A stretch of 64,000 bases of DNA from Flavobacteriales bacterium (lineage in GTDB: Bacteria; Bacteroidota; Bacteroidia; Flavobacteriales_F; PHOS-HE28): NCBI GenBank assembly GCA_016710015.1, contig JADJLR010000002.1, forward strand, positions 416,365 to 480,364. The letters run 5' to 3'. Positions 5,858 through 55,988 of this stretch are shown one piece after another (the first letter of the stretch is position 1; every line of letters begins with the position of its first letter). The notes below the pieces were generated by a model that ran no database searches, was not told the origin of the DNA, and saw only the letters and a program-made list of their open reading frames with translations. The position numbers were made by a program, and so were the translations under genes.

Positions 5858-6094
5858 GCCGAAGCGGAATTTGGCATGGGGCGGGTTTGAAGGATCCCTC
5901 CACGGGCCAACAGGAAATGGGTGGTCCGTTCGACCAATGACGCTGCCAAGGGGGCCTTTCTGACGTTCCACCAGAACGAAATAGCCTTCCCGTCAACAAG
6001 TTCCTGTTGGTATCGCTAAGTTCGCAGACACATTACACCCCGCACGTCCCGATACTTTTGGACGCACCGGGGGTAACCCTAGCGAACATCAACC

Positions 6095-7561
6095 ATGGCG
6101 CATCAATTGGTACTTCTGATCAACCTGCTCGGGCTCCTGCTCATCGATCCATTCTTCCTAGCGGATATCAGCATCACGCAGAACGTTCCCACCAACATGG
6201 TACCGGGGAGTGAGGTTCGCGTGACCGTTACGGTGAGCAAGGCCGATCTGAGCGGATTCGCCAAATTGCAATTGGACCTCCCTCCGGGACTCACCGTCAC
6301 GGCCATTGAGACCAAGGGCGCTTCCTTCACCTTCGCCGACCAGAAAGCGAAGTTCATTTGGATGGCCTTGCCGAGCACTCCCAGCTTCAAGGTGAGTTAT
6401 ACCCTGACCTCCGATGCAACAGTAAGTGGCAACCTCGCCATCCAAGGGAGACTGTCCTACATCGAGGACAATGAGCGCAAGACCTTCGATATGCCCACGG
6501 CCACCATCGACTTCGGTGTCGGCGGAGCCGTTCAGGTTGCCGAGACCACGACCAATGAAGAGCCCGATGCGCAGGACCTCGTTTCGGCGGGAGCTGGCGC
6601 ACCTCTTGGCACCTCCGTGATGGCCGTGATCGACCAAGCGGACGGGGTGGCCCCTATTCAAGGCATGGGAGGTGTTACCGGCACCCGTACCATCACACCC
6701 GTGTCAGCGAATGAAATGCTCGTGGAGGTGATCATCAAGAAAGGCGAGATCCGTGGGTTCGGCAAGTTGCAGGAGACCATTCCACAGGGGTTCAGTGCTC
6801 TTGAAAAGACCAGTACGGAAGCCATCTTCACCACGCAGGACCGGGCGGTGAAATTCGTATGGCTCAACTTGCCTGCTGCTGCGGAGGTGCGCGTGGTGTA
6901 CAAGTTGCGCGCGAATGAACGTCCAGAAGGAGAATACAGCATTGATGGTGAATTCGGATACTTGCTGAACGACGAAACGCAAAAGGCGGTATTGGGCACA
7001 TCGAAGTTCTTTATCGGTACTCGGGCCCTCGCAGGTATGGAAGGCGATGCCAGCAGCATGGACACCATGGCAAATGTGGATCCAGCTATGGCTCAACGAG
7101 AGAGAGAGGCCAAAGAAGCTGCTGCCAAGGAAGTTGCTCGTGAAGCCGCCGCCCGCGAAGCCGAAGCCAAGCGCTTGGCAGAGCAGCGCGCACGGGAGGA
7201 AGCGGTCGCCGCCCAACAGTCCAAGCCGGTCGTAGAGCCGAAGACCACCCCACGCATTCCAACGCCGGAGACCGGGATCGTGTACAAAGTGCAGATCACT
7301 GCAGGCCATCGGGAGGTGGGCAAGAGTTACTTCAGCATCCGCCACCGTTACACGGGAGCTTTCAGCGTGGAGCGCCACCAAGGCTGGATCAAATACGTGA
7401 CCGGTCGTTTCGGTTCATACAGCGAAGCACGTGATCAACGCGTAGGCTATGTAGCTGCGGGGCACCAATTCCCTGGGCCTTTTGTAACAGCCTATAACAA
7501 CGGCGATCGGATCACCGTACAAGAGGCCCTTCTCCTGAGCAACCAGAAGTGGGTGCAATGA
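6095..7561 (+). CDS. hypothetical envelope protein: internally duplicated ~100-aa N-terminal domain, Ala/Glu-rich helical linker, C-terminal SPOR-like domain
   Basis: Two homologous segments: GSEVRVTVTVSKADLSGFAKLQLDLPPGLTVTAIE...KAKFIWMALP and EVIIKKGEIRGFGKLQETIPQGFSALE...AVKFVWLNLP. The linker reads AKEAAAKEVAREAAAREAEAKRLAEQRAREEA. The C-terminus (IVYKVQITAG...WIKYVTGRFGSYSEARDQ) fits the SPOR peptidoglycan-binding fold. Confidence 0.6.
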   Translation: MAHQLVLLINLLGLLLIDPFFLADISITQNVPTNMVPGSEVRVTVTVSKADLSGFAKLQLDLPPGLTVTAIETKGASFTFADQKAKFIWMALPSTPSFKVSYTLTSDATVSGNLAIQGRLSYIEDNERKTFDMPTATIDFGVGGAVQVAETTTNEEPDAQDLVSAGAGAPLGTSVMAVIDQADGVAPIQGMGGVTGTRTITPVSANEMLVEVIIKKGEIRGFGKLQETIPQGFSALEKTSTEAIFTTQDRAVKFVWLNLPAAAEVRVVYKLRANERPEGEYSIDGEFGYLLNDETQKAVLGTSKFFIGTRALAGMEGDASSMDTMANVDPAMAQREREAKEAAAKEVAREAAAREAEAKRLAEQRAREEAVAAQQSKPVVEPKTTPRIPTPETGIVYKVQITAGHREVGKSYFSIRHRYTGAFSVERHQGWIKYVTGRFGSYSEARDQRVGYVAAGHQFPGPFVTAYNNGDRITVQEALLLSNQKWVQ

Positions 7562-51148: not shown

Positions 51149-52210
51149 ATGAAGAAAGTCCGCCTCCGATCCGAAAAAGCAGGTCTACCGCCGGGTGCCT
51201 TCGTTCGTGTGGGTCATGGGTCAGGATCAAATACGCTTATTCGTTTGTTCGAGTATGGCACCGATCGCGTGGTGGAGAGGCAACTCGACTCGATCGATGT
51301 ACCTGACACACTGGAAAATGGGTGCGCGAATGCGTGGATCGACATCGACGGGTTGAACGACGATGGGCTACTGCTCTCCATTGGAGAACGCTTCGACCTG
51401 CACCCACTGTTGCTGGAAGATGTATTGAACACGGATCACCGGCCCAAGGTGGAGGAGTACCATGATACCCTCTTCGTGGTGACCAAGATGCTCGCACTGG
51501 ATGAGGAGACCGGTGGTATCCTAAGCGAACAGATCTGCTTCATACTACGCAAAGGACTTGTGATCTCGTTCCAGGAACGTCCGGGCGATGTGCTTGAACC
51601 CATTCGTGAACGCCTGCGCATGGACACCGGTCGCGTGCGTCGAGCCGGAGCAGATTATCTTCTCTATTCGCTCCTCGATGTGATCGTGGACAACTACTTC
51701 CAGATCGTGGAGGATCTGGGTGGACGGATCGAAGCCCTTGAGCGCAAAGTGATGCTGAAGCCCGGCAACGAAGACCTGCTCACCATCCAAGAGTTGCGCA
51801 CTGCGCTGATCGGCGTGAACCGTTATGTGACCCCCACGCGGGAACTCGCTGGGCGGTTGAATACGCTGCAAAGCCCACTCATTGATAAAAGTACCAGGCG
51901 GTACATCAACGACCTACAGGACCATACGGTGTACATCGCCGAAACGATCAACACGGACCGCGAGATCCTGACCAGTTTGGAGAATACGTACCACGCCGGG
52001 CAGAACGCACGGATGACGCAGGTGATGAAGCTGCTGACCGTGATCAGCACCATCTTCATTCCGCTCACCTTCATCGTGGGTGTGTTCGGGATGAATTTCA
52101 GGTACATGCCCGAGTTGGAATGGCACTATGGCTACCCTCTGGTGATGCTGGCCATGGCCGTGATCACCGGGCTGATGCTCCTCTGGTTCCGCAAGCGGAA
52201 ATGGCTCTGA
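51149..52210 (+). CDS. corA: magnesium/cobalt transporter CorA
   Basis: C-terminal two-TM region with the GMN motif (GVFGMNFRYMPELEWHYGYP). Length 353 aa. Confidence 0.9.
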   Translation: MKKVRLRSEKAGLPPGAFVRVGHGSGSNTLIRLFEYGTDRVVERQLDSIDVPDTLENGCANAWIDIDGLNDDGLLLSIGERFDLHPLLLEDVLNTDHRPKVEEYHDTLFVVTKMLALDEETGGILSEQICFILRKGLVISFQERPGDVLEPIRERLRMDTGRVRRAGADYLLYSLLDVIVDNYFQIVEDLGGRIEALERKVMLKPGNEDLLTIQELRTALIGVNRYVTPTRELAGRLNTLQSPLIDKSTRRYINDLQDHTVYIAETINTDREILTSLENTYHAGQNARMTQVMKLLTVISTIFIPLTFIVGVFGMNFRYMPELEWHYGYPLVMLAMAVITGLMLLWFRKRKWL

Positions 52211-52518
52211 GGGCTCCTCTCCTCGGACCCCGGCGATCGAATTTCTCCGAGGAGTGTCGGCGCATTGTCCTGTCCTTTTACTTTGCACCGTGACGAACCG
52301 CGAACACAACCTTCCTTCCAAGGCCCCACCTAACTGTGGAATGACCTTGCATTGGGCTGTGGACGGCACCTGTTGCGCATCCTTCGCTTTCAGCTGATGG
52401 GCATTCGCGTGTCCTTCTGCTATGGGATGGCCCAGTTCCCCAACGCTTCGAACCGCTCACGCTTCCTTCTGATCACCCTGCGGACCTTGGCCCACCTTGA
52501 TGGACCGAGCGATCGCAC

Positions 52519-53961
52519 ATGGCCAATCCCCGCCTTTCACGCACTATGAAAACACGCTACGTCGACTTGATCGAGCAGACCTTCGATTTCCCGAAGGACG
52601 AGTTCACCTTGGACGATGACAACTTGGTCTGGAACGATCTGCCTCTGGTCCAGTTGATCGAAAAACACGGCACACCACTCCGCATCACGTACTTGCCGAA
52701 GATCGGCGAGAAGATCGAGTTCGCCCGCGACCGCTTCAAGAAAGCCTTTGAGACGCATGCGTATAACGGCACCTATGAATACTTCTACTGCACCAAGAGC
52801 AACCATTTCCAATACGTGATCGATAAGGTATTGGACAAGGGCGTGAATCTGGAGACCAGCAGTGCCTATGATCTGGAGATGATCGAATTGCTCATCGAGC
52901 GGGGACGGATCACCAAGGAAGCCACCATCCTGTGCAACGGGTTCAAGGATGCGCGCTACATACAAGGTATCGGCAAGCTTGCCAACCGGGGGTTCAACGT
53001 GGTGCCCATCATCGACAACATGGCGGAGATCCAACTGTTGGACGAAGTGATCGAGGGGAAGTGCGACATCGGGATCCGCATTGCTGCGGAAGAGGCTCCG
53101 AAATTCGAATTCTACACCAGCCGGTTGGGGATCGGGTACAAGGACATCATCCCGTTCTATATGCGCAACATCAGCAAACAGAAGAAATTCCGTTTGAAGC
53201 TGATGCACTTCTTCATCAACACCGGCATCACCGATACTGCGTACTACTGGAACGAGTTGAGCAAGTGCGTGAACGTGTACTGCGACCTGTGGAAGCTCTG
53301 CCGAACCTTGGACACACTGGATATCGGCGGTGGATTACCCATCAAGAACAGCCTCAATTTCAGCTTCGATGTGGATTACATGATCAGCGAGATCGTCGGG
53401 CGTATCAAGGACATCTGCGAGGAGAACAAAGTGCAGGAACCGAACATCTTCAGCGAATTCGGATCCTTCACCGTGAGCGATAGCGGTGCCACATTCTTCA
53501 GTATCGTGTACCAGAAGAAGCAGAACGAGAAGGAACGGTGGAACATGATCGATGGGTCCTTCATGACCACCTTACCGGACACATGGGCCATCAGCAAACG
53601 GTTCATCATGTTGCCCGTGAACAATTGGAACGACGAGTACGAACGCGTCTTCCTCGGTGGCATGACCTGCGATAGCGACGACTATTACAACAGCGAGCAG
53701 CATATAAACGCCATCTACCTGCCCAAGTACCAAGAGGAACGGCGCCAATACATCGGCTATTTCAATACCGGGGCATACCAAGATACCCTAGGCGGCTTCG
53801 GTGGTATCCAACACTGCCTGATCCCCAAGCCCAAGCACGTGTTGATCGACCGGTTGCCGGACGGCACCCTCACCGACCGCATCTTCGCTGAACAGCAGAC
53901 CGCCGAACGCATGCTGCAATTGTTGGGCTACTTACCGATGGAAGAGGAGGTGAAGAAGTAA
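52519..53961 (+). CDS. speA: arginine decarboxylase (short Bacteroidota-type, PLP fold III)
   Basis: Reads DLIEQTFDFPKDEFTLDDDNLVWNDLPLVQLIEKHGTPLRITYLPKIGEKIEFARDRFKKAFE...YEYFYCTKSNHFQYVIDKVLDKGVNLETSSAYDLEMI. The alternative start is ATG at 52546. Confidence 0.85.
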   Translation: MANPRLSRTMKTRYVDLIEQTFDFPKDEFTLDDDNLVWNDLPLVQLIEKHGTPLRITYLPKIGEKIEFARDRFKKAFETHAYNGTYEYFYCTKSNHFQYVIDKVLDKGVNLETSSAYDLEMIELLIERGRITKEATILCNGFKDARYIQGIGKLANRGFNVVPIIDNMAEIQLLDEVIEGKCDIGIRIAAEEAPKFEFYTSRLGIGYKDIIPFYMRNISKQKKFRLKLMHFFINTGITDTAYYWNELSKCVNVYCDLWKLCRTLDTLDIGGGLPIKNSLNFSFDVDYMISEIVGRIKDICEENKVQEPNIFSEFGSFTVSDSGATFFSIVYQKKQNEKERWNMIDGSFMTTLPDTWAISKRFIMLPVNNWNDEYERVFLGGMTCDSDDYYNSEQHINAIYLPKYQEERRQYIGYFNTGAYQDTLGGFGGIQHCLIPKPKHVLIDRLPDGTLTDRIFAEQQTAERMLQLLGYLPMEEEVKK

Positions 53962-53973
53962 CGAACTCCATGA

Positions 53974-54022
53974 TGAGTGACGAGTGGCGAGTGGCGAGTG
54001 ATGAGTGGCTAGTGGCGAATGA
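53974..54022. repeat. seven tandem copies of a degenerate heptamer (GAGTGGC) in the speA–DHS intergenic region
   Basis: gagtgac gagtggc gagtggc gagtgat gagtggc tagtggc gaatgac, about 85 nt upstream of the DHS-like start codon. Confidence 0.7.
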
Positions 54023-54107
54023 CCAGCTTTGTGGACACCACATGCCACTTGATCCTCGACCCATCCTTTGCATTTCCACTTCCCCCTCTATATTCGACCC
54101 CTGAACG

Positions 54108-55082
54108 ATGAGCAACACGCGACCGATATCGGCCTTCATGGAGAAGCACTACCTGCACTTCAATGCAGCAGCGCTCGTGGATGCCGCGAAAGGATACAAG
54201 GCCCATTTGGCACAAGGTCGCAAAATGATGGTGACCTTGGCCGGTGCAATGAGTACCGCTGAACTGGGCAAGAGCTTGGCCGAAATGATCCGCCAAGGGA
54301 AGGTGGACATCATCAGTTGCACGGGTGCGAATTTGGAGGAGGATGTGATGAACCTCGTGGCGCACGACCATTACGAGCGAGTACCCAACTACAGGGACCT
54401 GACCCCGCAACAAGAACGGGCACTGCTGGACCGTGGCATGAACCGCGTCACTGACACTTGCATTCCGGAACATGAGGCCTTCCGTCGTTTGGAAAAGCAT
54501 GTGGTGGACCTGTGGACCGCCGATGACAAGAGCAGGAACCGTCGATTTCCGCACCAGTACTTCTACGAAATGATCAACTCTGGCGTACTGAAGCAGTATT
54601 ACCAGATCGACCCGAAGAACAGTTGGATGGTGGCCGCAGCAGAGCGCAACCTGCCTATCATCTGCCCCGGATGGGAGGACAGTACCTTGGGCAACATCTT
54701 CGCTGGCCATTGCATGGTCGGCGATTGCAAACCCGGCATGATGAAGAGCGGGATCGAATACATGATGTTCCTAGCGGATTGGTACACGAACAATTGCGGT
54801 GTTGAGGGCATCGGTTTCTTCCAGATCGGTGGTGGTATCGCAGGGGACTTCCCGATCTGTGTAGTGCCCATGCTCCAACAAGACCTGCAACGCGAAACGC
54901 CGTTCTGGAGCTACTTCTGCCAGATCAGCGACAGCACCACGAGCTACGGCAGTTACAGCGGCGCTGTACCCAATGAGAAGATCACGTGGGGAAAACTCGA
55001 TATCGACACCCCGAAGTACATCATTGAAAGCGATGCTACTATTGTAGCACCACTCTTATTCGCGTACGTCCTTGATATGTGA
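54108..55082 (+). CDS. deoxyhypusine synthase family protein (homospermidine-synthase-like)
   Basis: Reads LAGAMSTAELGKSLAEMIRQGKVDIISCTGANLEEDVMNLV and GWEDSTLGNIFAG, the DHS-like fold. It is adjacent to speA, a polyamine context. Confidence 0.85.
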   Translation: MSNTRPISAFMEKHYLHFNAAALVDAAKGYKAHLAQGRKMMVTLAGAMSTAELGKSLAEMIRQGKVDIISCTGANLEEDVMNLVAHDHYERVPNYRDLTPQQERALLDRGMNRVTDTCIPEHEAFRRLEKHVVDLWTADDKSRNRRFPHQYFYEMINSGVLKQYYQIDPKNSWMVAAAERNLPIICPGWEDSTLGNIFAGHCMVGDCKPGMMKSGIEYMMFLADWYTNNCGVEGIGFFQIGGGIAGDFPICVVPMLQQDLQRETPFWSYFCQISDSTTSYGSYSGAVPNEKITWGKLDIDTPKYIIESDATIVAPLLFAYVLDM

Positions 55083-55471
55083 CCAAACGCCTGCGCCGGG
55101 CCTCGGTGCTTGAAACCATGCAACGCCTGATCCGCTCCTTCAATACCTTGACCGATGCGCTCAAGGAAACCCTACAGGAACAATACCCTGATGGGATCGA
55201 CACCACGCACATCAAGACGATCCCCACCGCCAAGGGCGAAGTCCTACGGGTGATCGAACTGCTTACGGCAGATGCCATGTACCTGATCAAGATCAACCCG
55301 GAGAGTCGGGAAGAGATCGAACAGTTCCTGGATCAGGATGACGGCGGTTCGGATGACGGTGACGAGATGGAAGGCAACGACGAGCTGGAAGGTGCCGACG
55401 ATGCAGACGACGATGATCCCGATGATGATGTGGCGGACGATGCAGGAGATGACGACGATGATGAAGATTGA
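55079..55471 (+). CDS. hypothetical protein with ~80-aa N-domain and extreme poly-Asp/Glu C-terminal tail
   Basis: GTG at 55079 overlaps the DHS stop (GTGA); the alternative ATG is 55118 (MQRLIRSF). The tail reads DQDDGGSDDGDEMEGNDELEGADDADDDDPDDDVADDAGDDDDDED. Confidence 0.5.
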   Translation: MTKRLRRASVLETMQRLIRSFNTLTDALKETLQEQYPDGIDTTHIKTIPTAKGEVLRVIELLTADAMYLIKINPESREEIEQFLDQDDGGSDDGDEMEGNDELEGADDADDDDPDDDVADDAGDDDDDED

Positions 55472-55571
55472 CCGGTTCATTACTTGAATACCCGAACGCC
55501 TCCGCTAACAACGGGGGCGTTCTTACTTTCGGTGCAAGCAACGCCATAGCTCCAAAGATCGGCGCACGCAA

Positions 55572-55988
55572 ATGACCGGACCATTCCACCTCGCCTTCGC
55601 CACCACGGACCTCAAACGCATCAGAGCCTTCTACGGCAAGTTCCTTGGCTGCAAGGAGGGCCGCAGCGCCGAGACCTGGGTGGACTACGACTTCTTCGGT
55701 CATCAACTCACGATCCAAGAGGTACCCAAATTGATCAAGACCGCTCGGATCTACAACCCCAAGAGCAGCATCCCAAGCACGCATTGGGGCATCGTGCTGC
55801 CATTGGCCGACTGGAGAAAGCTGCGCGACAAATTGAAGAAGGTGGGCGTGAAGTTCTACATCGAACCCGGCGTGGTGATGAAGGGCCAAGTAGGCGAACA
55901 ACGCAGCATGTTCATCGAGGACCCTGACGGCCATGCCATCGAGTTCAAGGCCTTCGAGGACGCTGGCGATCTCTTTCGTCGATCATGA
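55572..55988 (+). CDS. VOC family (glyoxalase/bleomycin-resistance/dioxygenase fold) protein
   Basis: Reads FHLAFATTDLKRIRAFYGKFLGC...HAIEFKAF, a typical VOC beta-alpha-beta-beta-beta module. Confidence 0.75.
   Translation: MTGPFHLAFATTDLKRIRAFYGKFLGCKEGRSAETWVDYDFFGHQLTIQEVPKLIKTARIYNPKSSIPSTHWGIVLPLADWRKLRDKLKKVGVKFYIEPGVVMKGQVGEQRSMFIEDPDGHAIEFKAFEDAGDLFRRS

What the first reader, a model, noticed from the sequence alone, without database searches (positions are those of the whole stretch)
54108..55471. Deoxyhypusine-synthase-like gene translationally coupled to a protein with a 45-residue poly-Asp/Glu tail, next to arginine decarboxylase
speA (52519..53961) and a DHS-like (homospermidine-synthase-type) gene form a polyamine-biosynthesis pair. 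A 130-aa ORF overlaps the DHS-like stop by GTGA. It consists of a small folded-looking N-domain followed by DQDDGGSDDGDEMEGNDELEGADDADDDDPDDDVADDAGDDDDDED. A strongly polyanionic tail coupled to polyamine (polycation) synthesis is suggestive of a polyamine-binding or buffering protein, or a chaperone. This is speculative inference from gene context and composition only.
Basis: inference. Interest (0 to 1): 0.5.

Follow-up and report, generated by a model that had tools for sequence, protein, structure and literature searches.

The report
Acidic-tailed small protein beside homospermidine synthase
A real, strongly conserved but uncharacterised small protein (a folded 73-residue head plus a disordered, very acidic tail) is made from the same transcript as the enzyme for the polyamine homospermidine in Flavobacteriales, yet its relatives in other Bacteroidota lie elsewhere in the genome, so a polyamine role is plausible but unproven.

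Summary
The three ORFs exist. speA-like (52519-53961) and the DHS-like gene (54108-55082, SpeY-type homospermidine synthase, catalytic WGK lysine kept) form a known polyamine pair.

The small ORF is a real gene, but its start is ATG 55118 (117 aa), not the GTG that overlaps the DHS stop. The 'GTGA translational coupling' is therefore not supported. Co-transcription is still likely: there is a 35-nt gap, no promoter-like site in between, and a terminator-like hairpin after it.

The protein defines a large family with no Pfam, NCBIfam or PDB match (at least 8,000 sequences). It has a beta-alpha-beta-beta-beta-alpha head and a disordered tail (median 54 aa, 48% D/E).

In Flavobacteriales it sat immediately 3' of the DHS-like gene in every locus where it was found (32 of 80 DHS loci, plus four independent look-ups). 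In Cytophagales and other lineages it lies in five unrelated contexts with no polyamine gene nearby. Chryseobacterium, Chitinophaga and Sphingobacteriia DHS loci lack it.

Best guess (about 0.3): an electrostatic binder or buffer of homospermidine and Mg2+. Rivals: a general nucleic-acid-mimic factor, an enzyme regulator, or a hitch-hiker gene. The finding is moderately interesting and function is untested.

The parts
52519..53961 (+). speA-like alanine-racemase-fold PLP decarboxylase (480 aa), probably arginine decarboxylase, the first step towards putrescine and homospermidine
   Evidence: PF02784 1.2e-17. The best NCBIfam hits are the speA models NF003763 and TIGR01273, below their cut-offs. 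An ortholog lies directly 5' of the DHS-like gene in 29 of the 32 loci that also carry the acidic ORF. In some loci an agmatinase gene sits between them.
54067..54096 (+). Bacteroidota-type promoter-like element (TTTG-N18-TATATTCG) just 5' of the DHS-like gene
   Evidence: It is the only such match on the + strand in 52200-55700 and was also picked by the sigma-70 scan. The TATATTCG block is conserved in relatives L011 and L012. This is a pattern match only, and the consensus is taken from PMC6847099.
54108..55082 (+). Deoxyhypusine-synthase-like gene (324 aa), a SpeY-type homospermidine synthase candidate
   Evidence: PF01916 3e-41. The catalytic Lys of the WGK motif aligns with that of human DHS. 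The protein is 72-95% identical across Bacteroidota.
55118..55336 (+). Folded N-terminal domain (residues 1-73) of the small acidic protein, starting at the true ATG
   Evidence: 116 of 120 homologues start here. AF2 gives beta-alpha-beta-beta-beta-alpha with pLDDT of about 85, and the same topology for a 35%-identical Flavobacterium member. No Pfam, NCBIfam, PDB-sequence or fold match was found.
55337..55471 (+). Disordered D/E-rich tail (44 residues plus stop codon)
   Evidence: The tail has 28 D/E of 44 residues and no basic residue. pLDDT is 48-60. Its sequence is not conserved but its composition is. Across the family the tail has a median of 54 aa, 48% D/E, 4.7% K/R and a mean net charge of -20.
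55494..55522 (+). Terminator-like hairpin (11-bp stem, 8 G-C pairs) followed by a T-rich run, closing the DHS-acidic transcription unit
   Evidence: The count of such sites is not above the shuffled expectation, so this is suggestive only.
55572..55988 (+). VOC/glyoxalase-fold gene (138 aa), a frequent but not universal downstream neighbour
   Evidence: PF00903 1.4e-9. It lies downstream of the acidic ORF in L001-L006, L008, L011-L013 and L016, and is absent there in most Flavobacterium loci.

Best explanation
Shown:
- 55118-55471 encodes a cytoplasmic 117-aa protein of a large, undescribed Bacteroidota family. It has a compact beta-alpha-beta-beta-beta-alpha head and an intrinsically disordered polyanionic tail.
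- In Flavobacteriales the gene is fixed as the last gene of the homospermidine operon: (speA)-(agmatinase)-DHS-like speY-acidic gene.

Inferred mechanism:
- The tail carries about -29 charge here and about -20 on average across the family. It acts as an electrostatic binder of the cell's small polycations, meaning the operon's own product sym-homospermidine (3+) and probably Mg2+.
- Being made in step with the synthase, it buffers the free polyamine pool or takes product off the enzyme.
- The conserved head docks it to a partner that is still unknown. That partner is probably not the synthase itself.
For: Real gene and family:
- 462 close and at least 7,995 distant homologues were found, none with a Pfam domain.
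- Two independent AF2 models give the same fold.

Operon:
- Same strand, with a gap of 6-50 nt in nearly all loci and 35 nt here. No promoter-like site lies in the gap, and a hairpin follows the gene.

Synteny:
- The gene sits immediately 3' of DHS in 32 of 80 DHS loci. All of these are Flavobacteriales, and 29 of them also have speA adjacent.
- It also sits there in every reverse look-up from Flavobacteriales members, at 30-35% head identity.

Tail:
- The tail keeps its composition but not its sequence, as expected for a charge-based function.

Context from papers and prior knowledge:
- Homospermidine is the major polyamine of Flavobacterium at 20-27 umol per g dry weight (PMC8570120).
- DHS-like SpeY makes homospermidine (PMC9992855).
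- Acidic disordered tails bind polyamines (alpha-synuclein; my own knowledge).
- A Mg2+ channel gene, corA, lies upstream in the window's clade.
Against: - The family is not tied to polyamine genes outside Flavobacteriales. Five other contexts have no DHS or speA within 5-6 kb.
- DHS enzymes of lineages without the adjacent gene are just as conserved and show no discriminating columns, so the enzyme does not need this protein.
- Millimolar homospermidine far exceeds what a normal-abundance protein could bind, so only the free pool could be buffered (inference).
- Some members carry Lys-rich blocks inside the tail, and most have short hydrophobic motifs. Both suggest protein-protein contacts rather than pure ion binding.
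- No binding, expression or phenotype data exist.
Confidence: 0.3

Rival explanations
1. General polyanionic nucleic-acid mimic. The head docks on a nucleic-acid-binding machine or protein (RNA polymerase, nucleoid or ribosomal proteins). The tail competes with DNA or RNA, as the delta subunit of Firmicutes RNA polymerase or sigma-70 region 1.1 does. Co-expression with polyamine synthesis in Flavobacteriales would then reflect joint tuning of nucleic-acid charge balance, not polyamine binding.
For: - The architecture (folded head plus long acidic tail) parallels delta (PMC7749165).
- The Bacteroidota housekeeping sigma lacks the acidic region 1.1 (PMC6847099).
- The family extends beyond Flavobacteriales (at least Cytophagales and other unassigned lineages) and is mostly monocistronic outside Flavobacteriales.
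- The Cytophagales subfamily is conserved between an ECF sigma gene and uvrA.
- Hydrophobic short motifs lie in the tail.
- The head is conserved within clades but diverges fast between them.
Against: - The head is not a HARE-HTH domain and matches no known RNAP-binding fold.
- The IMG label 'RNAP subunit delta' appears to rest on tail composition only.
- No rpo gene neighbourhood was seen.
- This reading does not explain the very stable position after speY in Flavobacteriales.
Confidence: 0.25
2. Hitch-hiker. The gene has a function unrelated to polyamines and merely became fixed behind speY in an ancestor of Flavobacteriales, using that promoter for constitutive expression.
For: - Linkage is confined to one order. 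Elsewhere the gene lies in five unrelated contexts.
- DHS shows no co-adaptation.
- The head evolves about three times faster than DHS.
Against: The arrangement survives across several families and down to 25-33% head identity, with flanks that differ completely. Gene order between functionally unrelated genes rarely persists that long.
Confidence: 0.2
3. Regulatory partner of the pathway enzymes, an antizyme-like feedback device. The head binds SpeY or SpeA, and the tail senses free homospermidine and changes enzyme activity or stability.
For: Strict adjacency to speY in Flavobacteriales and likely stoichiometric co-expression. There is precedent for protein regulators of polyamine enzymes (antizyme; my own knowledge).
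Against: - SpeY is strongly acidic (net about -16) whether or not the partner is present, so tail docking is electrostatically unfavourable.
- No DHS column distinguishes loci with and without the gene.
- DHS is 75% identical where the head is only 30% identical.
- The family exists unlinked to the pathway elsewhere.
Confidence: 0.12
4. Protein substrate. The DHS-like enzyme transfers an aminobutyl group to a conserved lysine of the small protein (Lys58 in the YLxK motif), a bacterial counterpart of eIF5A deoxyhypusination.
For: The enzyme keeps the catalytic lysine of true DHS and is unusually conserved. Lys58 is nearly invariant across the family. The gene adjacency recalls enzyme-substrate pairs.
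Against: - Lys58 sits at the end of a beta-strand, not on an extended loop able to enter the DHS tunnel.
- The hairpin-tip Lys39 is not conserved.
- Equally conserved DHS genes occur without the small gene.
- Bacterial DHS-like SpeY is reported not to be involved in deoxyhypusine formation (PMC9992855).
Confidence: 0.04

Closest known systems
SpeA-SpeY (DHS-like) homospermidine pathway of bacteria (Anabaena, Pelagibacter; PMC9992855)
   Same: Decarboxylase plus DHS-like gene cluster, with agmatinase in some related loci. The PF01916 fold and the catalytic WGK lysine are present. The host group has sym-homospermidine as its major polyamine.
   Different: No small acidic gene was found described with these clusters in the papers searched. 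The Bacteroidota enzyme scores far below the NCBIfam equivalog cut-offs (114 bits against 450), so it is a distinct clade whose activity has not been assayed.
RNA polymerase delta subunit (RpoE) of Firmicutes
   Same: Small cytoplasmic protein with a folded N-terminal domain of about 70-90 aa and a long disordered D/E tail. Some database entries for this family even carry that name.
   Different: The N-domain of delta is a HARE-HTH winged helix. Here the head is beta-alpha-beta-beta-beta-alpha with no Pfam hit. The phylum and gene context differ, and there is no evidence of RNAP binding.
Acidic disordered tails that bind polycations (alpha-synuclein C-terminus with polyamines; calsequestrin-type cation buffers)
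   Same: A low-complexity D/E-rich disordered segment whose composition, not sequence, is conserved.
   Different: These are eukaryotic and unrelated in sequence. None is encoded in a polyamine biosynthesis operon.
Pfam DUF5659
   Same: Five of 28 family members give weak hits over the beta-beta-beta-alpha part of the head. The best is 23.1 bits against a cut-off of 23.6.
   Different: The hits are sub-threshold. The window's protein gives no hit, and DUF5659 itself has no known function.

Membership tests
Deoxyhypusine synthase superfamily (PF01916), SpeY-type homospermidine synthase | PF01916 domain above the gathering score | tested here: met
   142 bits against a cut-off of 27, covering residues 17-320.
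Deoxyhypusine synthase superfamily (PF01916), SpeY-type homospermidine synthase | Catalytic lysine of the WGK motif (human Lys329) | tested here: met
   Query NEKITWGKL aligns with human DEAVSWGKI.
Deoxyhypusine synthase superfamily (PF01916), SpeY-type homospermidine synthase | Clustering with putrescine-forming genes (arginine decarboxylase, agmatinase) | tested here: met
   speA is adjacent in the window. speA-agmatinase-DHS occurs in L008, L009 and L063.
Deoxyhypusine synthase superfamily (PF01916), SpeY-type homospermidine synthase | Score above an NCBIfam equivalog cut-off (homospermidine biosynthesis protein NF001980, or the DHS models) | tested here: not met
   113.9 bits against 450. 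All DHS equivalogs are also below their cut-offs.
Deoxyhypusine synthase superfamily (PF01916), SpeY-type homospermidine synthase | NAD-dependent formation of homospermidine from putrescine | not testable with these tools
   This needs an enzyme assay. It is supported only indirectly by homospermidine being the major polyamine of Flavobacterium.
RNA polymerase delta subunit (RpoE) | HARE-HTH N-terminal domain (PF05066) | tested here: not met
   No Pfam hit for the window protein or for 28 family members. The predicted fold is beta-rich, not a winged helix.
RNA polymerase delta subunit (RpoE) | Long polyanionic C-terminal tail | tested here: met
RNA polymerase delta subunit (RpoE) | Binding to RNA polymerase | not testable with these tools
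   This needs a pull-down or cryo-EM.
eIF5A / EF-P-type substrates of lysine modification | Invariant lysine at the tip of an exposed beta-hairpin in an SH3/OB-like domain | tested here: not met
   The hairpin Lys39 is replaced in many members. The nearly invariant Lys58 lies in a strand. There is no eIF5A or EF-P Pfam hit.
LysW-type amino-group carrier proteins | Strictly conserved C-terminal Glu and a zinc-ribbon core | tested here: not met
   The C-terminal residue varies (D 160, N 111, E 77, F 18 and others). No Cys motif is present.
Pfam DUF5659 | Score above the gathering cut-off (23.6 bits) | tested here: inconclusive
   The best member reaches 23.1 bits. Five of 28 members give weak hits, and the window protein gives none.

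The most novel reading that the evidence does not exclude
The small protein is a dedicated physical partner of the homospermidine machinery. It would be either a polyamine-sensing, antizyme-like regulator whose polyanionic tail reads the free homospermidine level, or the first bacterial protein substrate of a DHS-like enzyme (aminobutylation of the conserved Lys58). Either way it would be a previously unknown layer of polyamine homeostasis in Flavobacteriales.
Probability: 0.15. Interest if true: 0.8.

Novelty: new variant of a known kind. Interest (0 to 1): 0.45.

Why it matters
How bacteria control free polyamine levels is poorly understood. No bacterial protein is known whose job is to bind or sense polyamines intracellularly in step with their synthesis.

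A family of more than 8,000 small acidic-tailed proteins has no annotation, no recognisable fold and misleading database names ('DNA primase', 'RNAP delta'). It is fixed in the homospermidine operon of an ecologically dominant order. That makes it a concrete, cheap target, because F. johnsoniae genetics are available.

If the protein binds or senses homospermidine, it would define a new homeostasis device. If instead it is a delta-like or region-1.1-like factor, it would bear on the unusual Bacteroidota transcription apparatus. Either outcome would also correct current annotations.

Tried and rejected
- Pfam, NCBIfam and PDB-sequence searches of the small protein and of a 28-sequence profile gave nothing above threshold.
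- The GTG/GTGA overlapping start was rejected from homologue N-termini.
- Tail-to-enzyme electrostatic docking was rejected. DHS is net -16 with the partner and -14.5 without it, and no discriminating columns exist.
- The carrier-protein (LysW-like) idea was rejected because the C-terminus is variable.
- An Rfam scan of 52200-55700 found no riboswitch or leader RNA.
- Literature searches for the family, for DUF5659, for DHS in Flavobacteria and for acidic-tail polyamine binders in bacteria found no description of this protein.
- The F. johnsoniae ribosome-profiling supplements could not be mined because they hold no product names.
- A complex prediction for SpeY plus the small protein was not attempted. 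The tool folds single chains and returns no interface metrics.

Full report
**1. What is in the sequence**

- 52519-53961 encodes a 480-aa alanine-racemase-fold PLP decarboxylase (PF02784 1.2e-17). Its best NCBIfam hits are the speA models, below their cut-offs.
- 54108-55082 encodes a 324-aa PF01916 deoxyhypusine-synthase-family protein (3e-41). The lysine of its WGK motif aligns with the catalytic lysine of human DHS.
- The third ORF, as listed, runs 55079-55471 from a GTG that overlaps the DHS stop.
It has 29 D/E in 45 residues and no basic residue, and it is the only such acidic run in the window.

**2. The start codon and the 'coupling'**

- A search of the 130-aa ORF found 462 homologues (E <= 0.01), all from uncultured Flavobacteriales. 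116 of the 120 listed begin at the methionine that corresponds to ATG 55118 (MQRLIRSF...).
- In the closest relative (L011, DHS 95% identical) only 7 nt separate the DHS stop from that ATG.
- The gene is therefore 55118-55471 (117 aa), and the GTGA overlap is an artefact of taking the longest ORF.
- Co-transcription still looks likely. The gap is 35 nt here and 6-50 nt in nearly all related loci.
- The only Bacteroidota-type promoter-like element on this strand (TTTG-N18-TATATTCG, 54067-54096) lies just before the DHS gene and is conserved in L011 and L012. A terminator-like hairpin follows the small gene at 55494-55522.
- These are pattern matches, not proof. No Rfam element lies in the region.

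**3. Anatomy of the small protein**

- Residues 1-73 are almost invariant within the window's clade, with 48 invariant columns among 20 sequences. The tail varies freely in sequence and length but stays D/E/G-rich and usually ends in DDDED.
- AlphaFold2 gives a beta-alpha-beta-beta-beta-alpha head (pLDDT about 85) and a disordered tail.
- An independent model of a 35%-identical Flavobacterium pallidum member gives the same topology.
- The head has no Pfam, NCBIfam or PDB-sequence match and no significant structural neighbour.
- GC3 of the head (0.74) matches the neighbouring genes.

**4. Size and spread of the family**

- An exhaustive phmmer search of the head against 1.8 billion representatives found 75 clusters at 28-50% identity. 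These are small proteins, nearly all with acidic tails.
None carries a Pfam domain. They include cultured Polaribacter, Flavobacterium, Tenacibaculum, Gramella, Salegentibacter and Paenimyroides.
- A divergent subfamily of at least 1,404 proteins belongs to Cyclobacteriaceae and other Bacteroidota.
- Over 435 complete sequences the tail has a median of 54 aa, 48% D/E, 4.7% K/R and a mean net charge of -20. The head itself is net -3.5. The C-terminal residue is variable.
- The few 'basic' tails are frame-shifted copies of the GAY-rich DNA.
- Database names for members ('DNA primase', 'RNA polymerase subunit delta', 'coaBC') have no domain support.

**5. Synteny, both directions**

Starting from the small protein:
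- In Flavobacteriales, members always lie immediately after the DHS-like gene, while the flanks differ completely.
- Examples are the window's clade (L001-L006), F. pallidum (speA-DHS-acidic), Polaribacter huanghezhanensis (speA-agmatinase-GNAT/CN-hydrolase-DHS-acidic-VOC) and a further lineage (speA-agmatinase-DHS-acidic).

Starting from the enzyme:
- 80 DHS loci from species-representative genomes were scanned with an HMM of the head.
- 32 have the small gene directly 3' of DHS. All 32 are Flavobacteriaceae, Crocinitomicaceae, Cryomorphaceae or unclassified Flavobacteriales, and 29 of them have speA directly 5'.
- 48 loci lack it within 5 kb, and only 3 of these have speA adjacent. They include Chryseobacterium and other Weeksellaceae, Chitinophaga, Sphingobacteriia, Ohtaekwangia and Kapaibacteria.

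Outside Flavobacteriales the family sits in five unrelated places, with no DHS or speA within 5-6 kb:
- an ECF sigma gene (divergent), then the acidic gene, then uvrA (conserved in six loci);
- NfeD, then the acidic gene, then CotH;
- between a pseudouridine synthase gene and a hut-operon arginase-fold gene;
- two contexts beside a two-component system.

The linkage to polyamine synthesis is therefore real, deep and exclusive within one order. It is not a property of the family as a whole.

**6. Does the enzyme 'know' the small protein?**

- DHS proteins are about equally acidic with the neighbour (net -16.3) and without it (-14.5). No alignment column separates the two groups apart from one Ile/Val position.
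- DHS is 74-78% identical between the window and Flavobacterium, where the head is only 25-33% identical.
- This argues against an obligate enzyme subunit and against electrostatic docking of the tail on the enzyme.

**7. Background from the literature**

- Bacterial DHS-like SpeY makes homospermidine from putrescine and is reported not to be involved in deoxyhypusine formation (PMC9992855).
- sym-Homospermidine is the major polyamine of Flavobacterium at 20-27 umol per g dry weight (PMC8570120).
- The Bacteroidota housekeeping sigma lacks the acidic region 1.1 (PMC6847099).
- Firmicutes delta is a folded domain plus an acidic tail that helps recycle RNA polymerase (PMC7749165).
- Ten literature searches found no paper that describes the acidic family.

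**8. Interpretation**

The speA/DHS-like pair is an ordinary, known homospermidine module. The added value is the third gene.

My preferred mechanism (confidence about 0.3) is a charge-based one. A disordered polyanion made in step with the synthase binds free homospermidine, and probably Mg2+, thereby buffering the free pool or drawing product away. The head anchors it to an unidentified partner.

Points in favour:
- the operon is stable in Flavobacteriales;
- selection acts on the tail's composition only;
- acidic tails are known to bind polyamines.

Points against:
- relatives elsewhere are unlinked to polyamine genes;
- the enzyme is indifferent to the small protein's presence;
- the stoichiometry is unfavourable;
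- some tails contain Lys-rich or hydrophobic motifs.

Rivals are a general nucleic-acid-mimic, delta-like or region-1.1-like factor (0.25), a functionally unrelated hitch-hiker (0.2), an antizyme-like regulator (0.12) and a protein substrate of the DHS-like enzyme (0.04). None is excluded by computation. The decisive experiments are listed separately.

**9. Verdict**

The polyamine context and the conservation are right. The coupling mechanism is wrong, the generality across Bacteroidota is wrong, and the function is untested.
- The enzyme pair is already known.
- The small protein is an undescribed family that resembles known 'folded head plus polyanionic tail' proteins only in architecture, so I rate it a new variant of a known kind.
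- Interest is moderate at 0.45.

Noticed in passing
window 53975-54018: A tandem array of a 7-nt unit (GAGTGGC, 6.3 copies, 81% matches) lies in the speA-DHS spacer. It is absent from the same spacer of the closest relatives L011 and L012.
   Followed up: partly
window 54108-55082; L011-L090: The DHS-like protein is unusually conserved, at 72-78% identity between Flavobacteriales, Chitinophagales, Sphingobacteriales and Kapaibacteria. Yet it scores far below every NCBIfam DHS or homospermidine equivalog cut-off.
   Followed up: partly
window 55572-55988; L001-L006, L008, L011-L013, L016: A VOC/glyoxalase-fold gene follows the acidic gene in the window's clade and in Polaribacter, but not in most Flavobacterium loci. 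Its role is unknown.
   Followed up: partly
window 51149-52210; L011, L012, L018: A CorA Mg2+ channel gene sits just upstream of speA in the window and in three related loci. This places the two main small cellular cations (Mg2+ and polyamine) in one neighbourhood.
   Followed up: no
L091-L096, gene at 6001-6393 (53-445 in L096): In Cyclobacteriaceae-type genomes the family member is conserved between a divergently transcribed ECF sigma factor gene (217 aa) and uvrA. This holds in six loci with otherwise different flanks.
   Followed up: partly
L036 (Flavobacterium suzhouense) tail; P0242 and relatives (Paenimyroides): Some members carry a Lys/Ser-rich block (for example KSKKPSKKKSVKKK) in the middle of the acidic tail. 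Most Flavobacterium tails have a conserved hydrophobic motif (VVEPIxxIKGLD) after the head.
   Followed up: no
P0004, P0009 (homologues of window 55118-55471): A few database homologues have Arg-rich instead of Asp-rich tails. These look like frame-shift errors in the GAY-repeat DNA rather than real variants.
   Followed up: no
L050, L019: Contigs labelled 'Bifidobacterium breve' MAG and 'Chryseobacterium gleum' MAG carry the DHS-acidic gene pair in the arrangement seen only in other Flavobacteriales. L050 also has speA upstream and a Flavobacterium-like acidic protein. This probably reflects binning contamination.
   Followed up: no
family-wide (P0199, P0225, P0257, P0282, P0128 etc.): Public names for family members ('DNA primase', 'DNA-directed RNA polymerase subunit delta', 'phosphopantothenoylcysteine synthetase/decarboxylase') have no domain support and seem to be annotation artefacts.
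   Followed up: partly
[not shown]
   Followed up: no
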